Shown here one piece after another: positions 17,700-19,210 of a stretch of 40,393 nt of DNA. The stretch is from positions 62,001-102,393 of the forward strand of contig QPGO01000241.1 in assembly GCA_008632985.1 (NCBI GenBank), written 5' to 3'. This DNA comes from Psammoneis japonica (lineage: Eukaryota). A program made the translations under genes and the position numbers. A model generated the notes under the pieces. It had not been told where the DNA came from and made no database searches. It saw nothing but the letters and a program-made list of their open reading frames with translations. How positions within the stretch are numbered: position 1 is the stretch's first letter; each line of letters begins with the position of its first letter.

Positions 17700-19210
17700 G
17701 TGCTTTTTGCTGTCATGAATGAAAGAGATGGTGTTTGGTTGATGGCTGAGGGTGCCAAGTTCAGCATCAGATTTCTTCTCAACCCCTTGAGTGCTTTGTT
17801 TGGTGATTGTTGCCACCACAGGTTGCATCAAGAGAATTGCAGTTCTTATCAGCATGTGCCATCTCAGACAAAGAGTGAGTCATTGTTGTTTTCTCTCTTG
17901 TTTTCTTAAATGTCAAACCATTTTTGCAGCACTCATCTTTTAATTGCAATGTGTTTGTTGCATGGAAGTGTCAGACAAGCATGTCACACCTCCATCCAGG
18001 ATGGACTTGGGAAGAAGATGAAAATGGGGGCAACTTCTGCTTTGCTCGTGCCCAACCATTTGGCTGCAAGGAAGAGTGCAAATGAGAGAACTCATGAAGG
18101 ACCCAAAGAGTTTCCAATTGAAAAGGCAGCTGCAAGTGAAACCCACAAAGACAAAGCCATTCAAGATGCAGTGGGTTCTTCTTCCATGTGGTTCAAGACA
18201 AGTCATGATGAATTGCCCTTAGAAAAGGCAGCTGCAAGCAAGACAGTCAAAAACAAAGCAGAGCATGAGGTTAAAAATTCCTCCACTGTGTTGTCTAAGA
18301 TGAGCCATGAACTTTTACAGCTGTTGGAACTCTTTGAGGACAAGTTGGTTGCTGAATCAAGGATGATTCTCAATCAACATCAAGGTGATCTAGACAGCAC
18401 AGCAGAGGCTGTGTGCAAAGGGTCTCTCCCCACAGTGGGAATCACCCTCAACCCATGAACAACTCTCAGAAAAGTGTTTTCATGAGGGTCCTTTTGTCAT
18501 TGTCATTAAGAATTAATGATCACATGTGCTTTCCTGCCAAACATGAGAATGACAGCAGAACATGATGCCAAACTGCTTGTTGATGGATCCAGTGACTTTG
18601 GGAGTGGAGCACACCACAGTTTCATGGTCTTGGGTGAGGAGGAAGTCAAGGAAACTGTGGATTGCCCCCATGAATGTTGCACTGACAGTGATTGTGGCAA
18701 TGACAAGATGTGTGCAGCAAATGGATGTGTCTGTTGCCATGAATGCTGTGGCAACAGTGACTGTGGAAGCAATGAGTTTTGCTCAGACAGCAATGAGTGT
18801 TTGGCAAATGTGAGTGCCCCAATGGCAACAATGACTGCACTGGAAGTGATGTTTGCATTGATTGCAAATGCACTCCAGTCTGTGTGATGAGCAATGATTG
18901 CCCTCCAGATCACAAATGTCAACAAGAACCTGGTGGGTGGTTTGCACCTTTCAGTGCTGCAGCAATGATGATTGTGGGAGTGATGAGATTTGCTCAAGCA
19001 ATGCTTGTGCCTGTCGCCATGAATGCTGCAGCAATGCTGACTGTTCCAGTGATGAGATGTGCTCAAACAATGTTTGTGCCTGCTGTCATGAATGTTGTTG
19101 TGCCAACAATGATTGCCCCCTGGTGGACAATGAGGAGTGTGAAATGACCAAAATGCAGAAAATGAAGAGATGCAGTTGAGCAACAATTGAGTTGCATGAA
19201 CACCTCACAT
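17700..19210 (+). pseudogene. Degenerate, internally deleted paralog of the Cys-rich membrane-protein gene at 35820-40118
   Basis: GPKEFPIE vs GPNEFPME. SKMSHELLQLLELFEDK is identical. KLLVDGSSDF vs KLLVDGSGDF. HECC..SDC repeats. The 3' flank AGATGCAGTTGAGC is shared (~19168 and ~40221). Confidence 0.88.

What the first reader, a model, noticed from the sequence alone, without database searches (positions are those of the whole stretch)
18560..19120. Internal before/after control: dead paralog vs intact gene at 37110-37720
Aligned by eye (intact > decayed): GACGG>GATGG, CATA>CACA, GATATTT>GATGTTT, TGCGTCGAT>TGCATTGAT, TGTAAA>TGCAAA, CCGGTCTGCGTA>CCAGTCTGTGTG, AGTAAT>AGCAAT, TGTACC>TGTGCC, TGCCGT>TGCTGT. 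Both TA and CG of the intact copy map to TG/CA in the copy inside the block, so host gene duplicates are also hit. The copies are paralogs with other divergence, so direction is inferred.
Basis: partly seen in the sequence, partly recalled or inferred. Interest (0 to 1): 0.75.

Follow-up and report, generated by a model that had tools for sequence, protein, structure and literature searches.

The report
Dead gene copy in TA-erased DNA
A broken copy of a diatom gene has lost every TA and almost every CG step, but most of the TA loss happened earlier, in an ancestor that was still under selection to make protein, which suggests this genome's unusual TA-erasing mutation can also act on working host genes.

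Summary
The homology is real (about 72% nt). The dead copy keeps 0 of 12 aligned TA and 1 of 35 CG. But the pair is not a clean before/after control. The dead copy derives from a third gene, G000:C57 (87-88% identical), not from the window's gene. C57 is already TA-free here and shares 10 of 12 states. Outgroups back 2 of the 6 quoted TA examples and contradict 3; 5 of 6 CG examples hold.

Better controls confirm the direction. A second dead host-gene copy next door lost 33 of 37 TA. Six LTRs of one retrotransposon family show TA columns resolving to both TG and CA.

New here: C57 keeps its frame (one -1 shift), lost TA and CG only by synonymous routes (8/8, 19/19), and kept 3 of 4 conserved tyrosines. 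So TA erasure acted on a gene under purifying selection.

Closest known case: TpA hypermutation in Bigelowiella natans (2026 preprint). The enzyme is inferred, not shown. The 'intact' gene carries three -1 frameshifts; expression is untested. The scan noted the TA/CG blocks many times elsewhere in this genome.

The parts
17819..19200 (+). Dead, internally deleted copy of a CUE-like / transmembrane / Cys-rich-repeat gene. ATG at 17981; frameshifts near 18029, 18806 and 18939; includes upstream non-coding DNA and a short piece of the 3' flank. Derived from a C57-like gene.
18570..19139 (+). The finding: end of the post-TM domain plus Cys-rich repeats. 0 TA, 1 CG; 87% to C57, 84% to C108, 76% to C24, 72% to the window's gene.
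18415..18563 (.). Multi-copy repeat of about 150 bp (matches on C1, C118, C176, C79, C35, C95, C421), standing in place of about 870 bp of the gene (C57 293681-294553, which holds the TM helix and three conserved Tyr).
19152..19200 (+). Remnant of the gene's 3' flank, joined to the Cys repeats after a second deletion.
15925..17557 (+). Second dead host-gene copy in the same block: helicase-associated (HA, PF03457) repeat gene. Its intact TA-normal relative is G000:C59:51985-53673 (563 aa). TA lost 33 of 37 (29 to TG/CA), CG lost 64 of 78. A cleaner before/after control than the finding's pair.
15980..24250 (.). TA/CG-erased block 1 (TA o/e 0.03-0.10, CG o/e 0.02-0.32), made of two gene copies, a multi-copy repeat family (19230-23875) and a fragment of the block-2 element (23941-24300).
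27400..34950 (.). TA/CG-erased block 2, mostly a decayed copia-like retroelement. The family label comes from my reading of the RT motifs; Pfam gave no hit.
35826..40118 (+). TA-normal paralog ('live' gene): weak CUE match at about 36100-36210 (E 0.0099, below cut-off), hydrophobic helix at about 36760-36835 (read by eye), a domain of about 130 aa, then Cys-rich tandem repeats. Three -1 frameshifts as assembled.

Best explanation
The 18560-19120 stretch is part of a pseudogene made by DNA-level duplication of a C57-like gene. Two regional mutation processes act on repressed DNA in this diatom-like genome. (1) A fast A:T to G:C process restricted to TpA, on both strands, one hit per site (TA to TG or CA), favouring T-A-pyrimidine (equivalently purine-T-A). 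(2) Slower CpG decay (CG to TG/CA), as expected from 5-methylcytosine deamination. History (inferred from trees and shared states): the ancestor of C57, C108 and the dead copy came under both processes while still under purifying selection. Synonymous TA went, dispensable Tyr became His or Phe, essential Tyr and Arg stayed. It then duplicated; the copies at 17819-19200 and C108 died and lost CG and the remaining TA neutrally. Shown: spectrum, direction, context, shared history, selection. Inferred: link to silent methylated chromatin. Least certain (about 0.4): the lesion is adenine deamination to hypoxanthine by a TadA/ADAT-type enzyme, fixed at replication.
For: Direction: six LTR copies have 12 columns with TA in at least one copy; 44 of 72 cells are TG/CA, 28 keep TA, none is anything else. 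Six columns hold TA, TG and CA together, and no column mixes TA with CG. CG cells changed 20 of 125; other cells 9 of 1208. Three independent TA-normal versus erased pairs: TA kept 5 of 106, 87 to TG/CA; A>G after T 79 of 99, after A 25 of 296, after G 16 of 262, after C 4 of 269. Context: residual TA in 158 erased versus 135 normal 1-kb windows ranges from ATAT 0.002 to TTAA 0.46; A before a pyrimidine was hit 32 times, before a purine 15 times (p 0.019). C57 is hypermutated: NNT|A 2 of 122 against 161 of 593 in four paralogs (p 8e-13); Tyr 4 of 1040 against 100 of 4395 (p 7e-6). C57 is under selection: TA transitions 8 of 8 and CG transitions 19 of 19 by the synonymous route; Arg CG kept 9 of 9 against 3 of 13 in the dead copies (p 5e-4); conserved Tyr kept 3 of 4 and the fourth became Phe, while C108 turned those three into His/Cys codons. 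Stem pN/pS 0.06. After the split the dead copies use both routes (third-position CG: dead 10 synonymous, 9 not; C108 9 and 14). Engineered TadA7.10 prefers a preceding T and a following C (10.1101/2020.07.05.186544, passages).
Against: Site numbers in the gene family are small (15 ancestral TA in C57). Four of the 12 ancestral TA lost in C57 went to TT, which the TA-to-TG/CA process does not explain. The synonymous-route test shows selection, not a raised rate; the rate claim for C57 rests on composition. pN/pS is also low on the dead copy's own branch (0.11-0.21), so that ratio alone is not diagnostic under this spectrum. C57 has one -1 shift in a G run, so it may be dead now. No methylation, chromatin or expression data. 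The deaminases found (9 PF00383 matches, 4 PF02137 matches at 2 loci) look like the ordinary set. Sequence alone cannot tell whether A or T carries the lesion.
Confidence: 0.75

Rival explanations
1. One reading: the dead copy descends from the TA-normal window gene and lost TA and CG only after landing in block 1.
For: 0 of 12 TA and 1 of 35 CG kept. CG decay is specific to the dead copy (26 of 27 C57 CGs lost). 5 of 7 TA left in C57's 5' part are gone in the dead copy, 3 of them to TG/CA.
Against: The dead copy groups with C57 and C108 (99-100% support). 10 of 12 states are shared with C57, including a shared TT.
Confidence: 0.07
2. TA loss is a by-product of error-prone repair (polymerase eta, WA motif; recalled) triggered by T:G mismatches from 5mC deamination.
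For: TA and CG loss share the same domains. A>G after A is slightly higher than after G (25 of 296 against 16 of 262).
Against: In a young copia pair A/G differences follow A in 30 of 646, G in 31 of 906, T in 43 of 99. TA loss runs ahead of CG loss (44 of 72 against 20 of 125; C91 pair 38 of 40 against 5 of 14).
Confidence: 0.1
3. A modified thymine (or adenine) at TpA marks repressed chromatin and mispairs or is mis-repaired, giving T to C after a purine, with no deaminase involved.
For: Purine-T-A is the same duplex motif as T-A-pyrimidine. The genome has many C5 methyltransferase matches (27), so base-modifying systems are expanded or duplicated.
Against: No base-modification data; I did not search for TET/JBP or adenine methyltransferase genes.
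Confidence: 0.2
4. Direction reversed: RIP-like CpA-to-TpA gain in the TA-rich copies, with TG/CA ancestral.
For: Some live-gene TAs are lineage-specific gains (CATA, AGTAAT, GATATTT).
Against: LTR columns with TA, TG and CA but never CG need ancestral TA. C108 lacks three Tyr found in the window's gene, C24 and C57. The TA-normal state is the genome background.
Confidence: 0.02
5. Long-read base-calling artefact at modified bases.
For: The assembly shows single-base deletions in the live gene and C57. No reads could be checked.
Against: A miscall cannot choose synonymous routes 27 times in 27, spare Arg and Tyr codons, or give the same state in three paralogs.
Confidence: 0.04

Closest known systems
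TpA hypermutation of integrated NCLDV and virophage DNA in Bigelowiella natans (Mettrop et al., bioRxiv 10.64898/2026.01.13.699255; I read abstract, introduction, results, discussion and conclusion, parts 1-3 of 5)
   Same: A:T to G:C transitions only at TpA, both strands (TG and CA), regionally confined; TpA-poor, CpA/TpG-rich clusters; ADAT-type deamination proposed but not shown.
   Different: Here a diatom-like stramenopile. Targets include host-gene duplicates and a gene under purifying selection. Depletion is near complete (o/e 0.03-0.1 against Rho 0.45 for their NCLDV region). CpG decay runs alongside; 'CpG', 'diatom' and 'pseudogene' have 0 occurrences in their main text. A 3' pyrimidine preference is seen here. 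No direct rate here.
Repeat-induced point mutation (RIP) of ascomycetes, RID/DNMT4-dependent
   Same: Dense, dinucleotide-specific transitions that wreck duplicated and mobile DNA. Diatoms have DNMT4 enzymes possibly related to RID (PMC9998398, passages).
   Different: RIP makes TpA from CpA (recalled); this removes TpA. Relatives on C59 and C91 stay TA-normal while their copies are erased, so homology alone does not trigger it.
CpG decay by 5-methylcytosine deamination in CG-methylated diatom TE islands (DNMT5; PMC9998398, passages)
   Same: CG to TG/CA in sharply bounded repeat islands within a CG-normal genome.
   Different: Does not account for TA loss, which is faster and more complete.

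Membership tests
B. natans-type TpA hypermutation | A>G / T>C transitions confined to TpA | tested here: met
   A>G after T 79 of 99; after A, G, C 25/296, 16/262, 4/269
B. natans-type TpA hypermutation | Both strands hit (TG and CA products), direction from TA | tested here: met
   CA 49, TG 38 of 106 TA; LTR columns
B. natans-type TpA hypermutation | Confined to discrete regions | tested here: met
   Sharp borders near 16000, 24250, 27400, 34950; 3-kb island over the C57 gene body
B. natans-type TpA hypermutation | Target of viral or foreign origin | tested here: not met
   Targets here are copies of a multi-copy Cys-rich gene family with intact members and of an HA-domain gene with diatom homologs; TEs are also hit
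B. natans-type TpA hypermutation | About 1000-fold raised de novo rate in living lines; transcriptional silence of the large target | not testable with these tools
   No mutation-accumulation data; no run could be laid
B. natans-type TpA hypermutation | ADAT2-like candidate deaminase encoded | tested here: inconclusive
   TadA-like matches on C38 and C26; such enzymes are general housekeeping genes, so presence says little
RIP | C to T at CpA, raising TpA | tested here: not met
   C>T before A 8 of 270; TpA is removed
RIP | Both partners of a duplication mutated | tested here: not met
   C59 HA gene and C91 homolog are TA-normal while the window copies are erased; at about 80% identity these pairs are old, so this is not a strict test
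RIP | Premeiotic timing and RID dependence | not testable with these tools
   27 PF00145 matches; family assignment of the C59 enzyme was not tested by a tree
5mC-driven CpG decay | CG to TG/CA well above background | tested here: met
   74 of 120 CG to TG/CA in three pairs; 26 of 27 from C57 to the dead copy
5mC-driven CpG decay | CG methylation present on the target | not testable with these tools
   No bisulfite or native-read data
Polymerase eta WA signature | A>G raised after A as well as after T | tested here: not met
   30 of 646 after A, 31 of 906 after G, 43 of 99 after T
Duplicated pseudogene | Disabling lesions and neutral substitution relative to a parent-like gene | tested here: met
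   Three frameshifts, two large deletions, both codon routes used

The most novel reading that the evidence does not exclude
The TpA mutator reported once, in a rhizarian alga, also operates in diatoms and is not limited to foreign DNA. It covers repressed chromatin domains, including host genes that are still needed. Such genes survive by purifying selection but are rewritten: TA-free, tyrosine-poor, histidine-richer. C57 would be an example. A genome-defence editor would then be shaping the host proteome and sterilising gene duplicates.
Probability: 0.5. Interest if true: 0.85.

Novelty: new variant of a known kind. Interest (0 to 1): 0.62.

Why it matters
Only one paper in the searched library reports TpA-specific hypermutation, in viral inserts of an unrelated alga. 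This locus extends it to host-gene duplicates in a diatom-like genome, fixes its direction with internal controls, and gives a sequence context that any candidate enzyme must reproduce. If C57 is a working gene, the process is not only a defence against foreign DNA: it biases codon and amino-acid use of host genes. It would also distort LTR dating and dN/dS in such genomes.

Tried and rejected
RNA check: no RNA holder listed for 35800-37800, so no reads were laid; this is no evidence either way.

Identity of the Cys-rich protein: no homolog for residues 100-270 among longer proteins (weak evidence); no usable Atlas hit; no PDB sequence match; no Pfam family for the C19 paralog.

Literature: 'repeat-induced point mutation + diatom + TpA' gave 0 papers. 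Searches listed nothing on TpA loss in diatoms (listings only). The diatom TE preprint 10.1101/2025.10.24.684338 has 0 hits for TpA, dinucleotide, hypermutation, RIP, pseudogene and methylation. PMC10960570 gave nothing useful on TadA context. One search gave 0 papers.

Rejected, TA-to-TT excess as a sign of abasic-site repair: numbers too small and unpolarised. Rejected, silencing of C57 in trans by the two dead copies: its TA-free zone includes 3' repeats with no other copy found, and the 5' part shared with both copies is the least erased. Rejected, internal tandem repeats as the trigger: the live gene has longer near-identical repeats and keeps TA. Rejected, a deaminase expansion: none seen.

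The 7-sequence alignment with C19 is out of register in the Cys repeats; I used the targeted segment alignment instead. The genome-wide share of erased DNA was not estimated; my stretches were chosen around hits and are biased.

Full report
VERDICT. Following it up gave a stronger result: TA erasure in this gene family began in a gene that was still under purifying selection.

SETTING. The window is G000:C243:62001-102393 of a 91.4-Mb assembly in 597 contigs. Named homologs of a neighbouring gene family are mostly from diatoms (Skeletonema, Ditylum, Cylindrotheca, Nitzschia), so I call the genome diatom-like. Two blocks, about 15980-24250 and 27400-34950, have TA o/e 0.02-0.14 and CG o/e 0.02-0.5 with TG/CA up to 2.0; the flanks have TA about 0.4-1.1 and CG about 1. 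Such blocks recur on nearly all contigs I fetched; those stretches were chosen around hits, so they give no genome-wide share.

OBSERVATION. The homology is beyond chance: score 364 against a maximum of 34 in 300 shuffles, about 72% identity. All nine quoted motif pairs are in place. Of aligned sites in 18560-19120, TA changed 12 of 12 (9 to TG/CA), CG 34 of 35 (28 to TG/CA), other dinucleotides 187 of 443 (p 4e-5 and 2e-11). The copy is dead: frameshifts near 18029, 18806 and 18939; about 870 bp replaced by a 150-bp repeat at 18415-18563; a second deletion that joins the Cys repeats to the 3' flank. The 'intact' gene needs three -1 frame changes. Four other genes I translated (C24, C19, C2, C59) need none, and C57 needs one. 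Assembly error is plausible but untested.

THE FAMILY. Searches found members on C24, C19 and C2 (TA-normal, open frames), C57 (TA-poor, one -1 shift in a G run) and C108 (broken, inside a block). The dead copy is 87-88% identical to C57, 84% to C108, 76% to C24 and 72% to the window's gene in the Cys segment. Trees group dead + C57 + C108 with 99-100% support, and C57's own branch is short (0.000-0.028). C57 is therefore the nearest thing to a 'before' copy.

Of 12 live-TA sites, outgroup C24 has TA at 4; C57 has TA at none and matches the dead copy at 10. With C19 added on a targeted segment, two of six quoted TA examples are backed, three are contradicted and one is ambiguous. Five of six quoted CG sites are backed by C24. 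Eleven of the 12 ancestral TA sites lost in both C57 and C108 carry the same derived state (my count). So the TA loss mostly predates the duplication. What the dead copy did on its own here is lose CG: 26 of 27 C57 CGs. Dead-specific TA loss is limited to a few sites: 5 of 7 TA in C57's 5' part, 3 of them to TG/CA.

BETTER CONTROLS. (a) Window 15925-17557 is a dead copy of an HA-domain gene whose intact relative is on C59: TA lost 33 of 37 (29 to TG/CA), CG lost 64 of 78. This supports 'host gene duplicates are hit' more cleanly. (b) Three independent TA-normal versus erased pairs: TA kept 5 of 106 with 87 to TG/CA; CG kept 29 of 120 with 74 to TG/CA; A>G after T 79 of 99 against 25 of 296, 16 of 262 and 4 of 269 after A, G and C. 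These pairs are unpolarised by themselves. (c) Six LTRs from three copies of one young copia-like family: in 12 columns with TA, 44 of 72 cells are TG/CA and none is anything else; six columns hold TA, TG and CA; none mixes TA and CG; CG cells changed 20 of 125; other cells 9 of 1208. The two LTRs of the C24 copy differ at 9 TA-versus-TG/CA sites, 1 TG-versus-CA site, 1 CG site and nowhere else. This fixes TA as ancestral and shows TA loss outrunning CG loss.

CONTEXT. In 158 erased against 135 normal 1-kb windows, residual TA depends on the flanks: ATAT 0.002, ATAC 0.01, GTAC 0.04, CTAG 0.14, CTAA 0.28, TTAA 0.46. At asymmetric sites the A before a pyrimidine was hit 32 times and the A before a purine 15 times (p 0.019). 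The motif is T-A-pyrimidine, or purine-T-A if T is the damaged base.

C57, THE NEW POINT. Its TA-free island runs from about 293.66 to 296.5 kb, the gene body less its first 400 bp, with normal flanks. Synonymous NNT|A occurs at 2 of 122 chances against 161 of 593 in four paralogs (p 8e-13). Tyr is 4 of 1040 codons against 100 of 4395 (p 7e-6). His is modestly up (31 of 1040 against 85 of 4395, p 0.04). At sites shared by C24 and the window's gene, C57's TA transitions took the synonymous route 8 of 8 times and its CG transitions 19 of 19. It kept 9 of 9 Arg CGs (dead copies 3 of 13) and 3 of 4 conserved Tyr; the fourth became Phe, and C108 later turned the three into His/Cys codons. The dead copies use both routes after the split. 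Against: few sites; 4 of the 12 lost TA went to TT; low pN/pS also appears on the dead branch; the route test shows selection, while the raised rate rests on composition; C57 may be dead today.

MECHANISM. Shown: a TpA-restricted, two-strand, regional A:T to G:C process plus CpG decay. Inferred: targeting to repressed, CG-methylated domains. Diatom genomes are described as CG-methylated TE islands in an unmethylated background (PMC9998398, passages), and this genome has 27 C5-methyltransferase matches. Homology alone is not the trigger: relatives on C59 and C91 are untouched. My most likely lesion (about 0.4) is adenine deamination by a TadA/ADAT-type enzyme: engineered TadA7.10 prefers a preceding T and a following C (10.1101/2020.07.05.186544, passages), and the B. 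natans authors propose ADAT2. The genome's deaminase set looks ordinary. A modified T or A (0.2) and polymerase-eta repair (0.1; AA not raised) remain as rivals. A base-calling artefact (0.04) cannot respect codon position.

WHAT IS KNOWN. The closest case is the B. natans preprint (10.64898/2026.01.13.699255; parts 1-3 of 5 read; term search; supplements closed). It reports the same substitution on viral inserts, and notes that some TpA-depleted CDS carry host-type domains. It does not mention CpG, diatoms or pseudogenes. I found no paper on this in diatoms; subscription journals are not covered. The locus works like that system but fails its 'foreign target' feature, so I file it as a new variant. 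It is not RIP: opposite direction, and relatives are spared.

EARLIER SCAN NOTES. The blocks, the TA-before-CG order, an LTR test and the context bias were noted before in this genome, and one note led me to the preprint. I re-derived these on my own stretches. None of the 21 notes shown reported selection on a TA-erased host gene; one described a tyrosine-free ORF inside an erased tract.

SCORE. Interest 0.62. The process is striking and barely described. This item is a supporting control whose TA claim is confounded, but it leads to evidence that a host gene was rewritten while under selection. Novel case: probability 0.5, interest 0.85.

Noticed in passing
window 24300-27436: A single-copy, TA-normal 3.1-kb stretch with gene-like ORFs on the minus strand (25593-27151) stands between two parts of the block-2 element that are only about 580 bp apart in other copies. 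It may be a later insertion, two separate fragments, or a misassembly.
   Followed up: partly
G000:C24:376349-384029 and C108:168847-175911; related LTRs at C243 about 51757-55667: Young copia-like elements (92-94% alike) with TA largely gone and CG kept; Tyr-poor frames. Described and counted only.
   Followed up: yes
G000:C301:35354-36223 and C297:5133-5999, 37210-39772 (L138, L139): C5 DNA methyltransferase matches on C301 and C297; the two I profiled (L138, L139) are themselves TA-erased (TA o/e 0.03 and 0.09), beside TA-normal members on C59, C10, C78. Homologs of the C59 enzyme are diatom proteins, two with a chromodomain; DNMT4/RID membership was not tested.
   Followed up: partly
G000:C108:156804-158749 and 184596-185704: C108 carries dead copies of both genes found in block 1 (HA gene, then Cys-rich gene), in the same order and orientation but 26 kb apart. 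Shared origin or coincidence is unresolved.
   Followed up: partly
window 40115-40392: The 3' flank of the live gene matches C57's 3' flank at 80%, higher than their coding regions, and is partly duplicated in C57.
   Followed up: no
G000:C2:165248-167660 (L045): A paralog shares the N-terminal part, TM helix and post-TM domain but replaces the Cys-rich repeats with glycine-rich repeats that look like a beta-propeller (read by eye), so the family swaps extracellular modules.
   Followed up: no
G000:C59:53750-56250: A 2.5-kb TA/CG-erased island begins right upstream of the intact HA gene's start codon.
   Followed up: no
window 14816-15340, minus strand: GNAT acetyltransferase ORF just outside block 1, TA-normal.
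   Followed up: no
G000:C91:25001-32000 and C252:84001-91044: Near-identical composition profiles and equal matches suggest allelic or duplicated contigs in the assembly.
   Followed up: no
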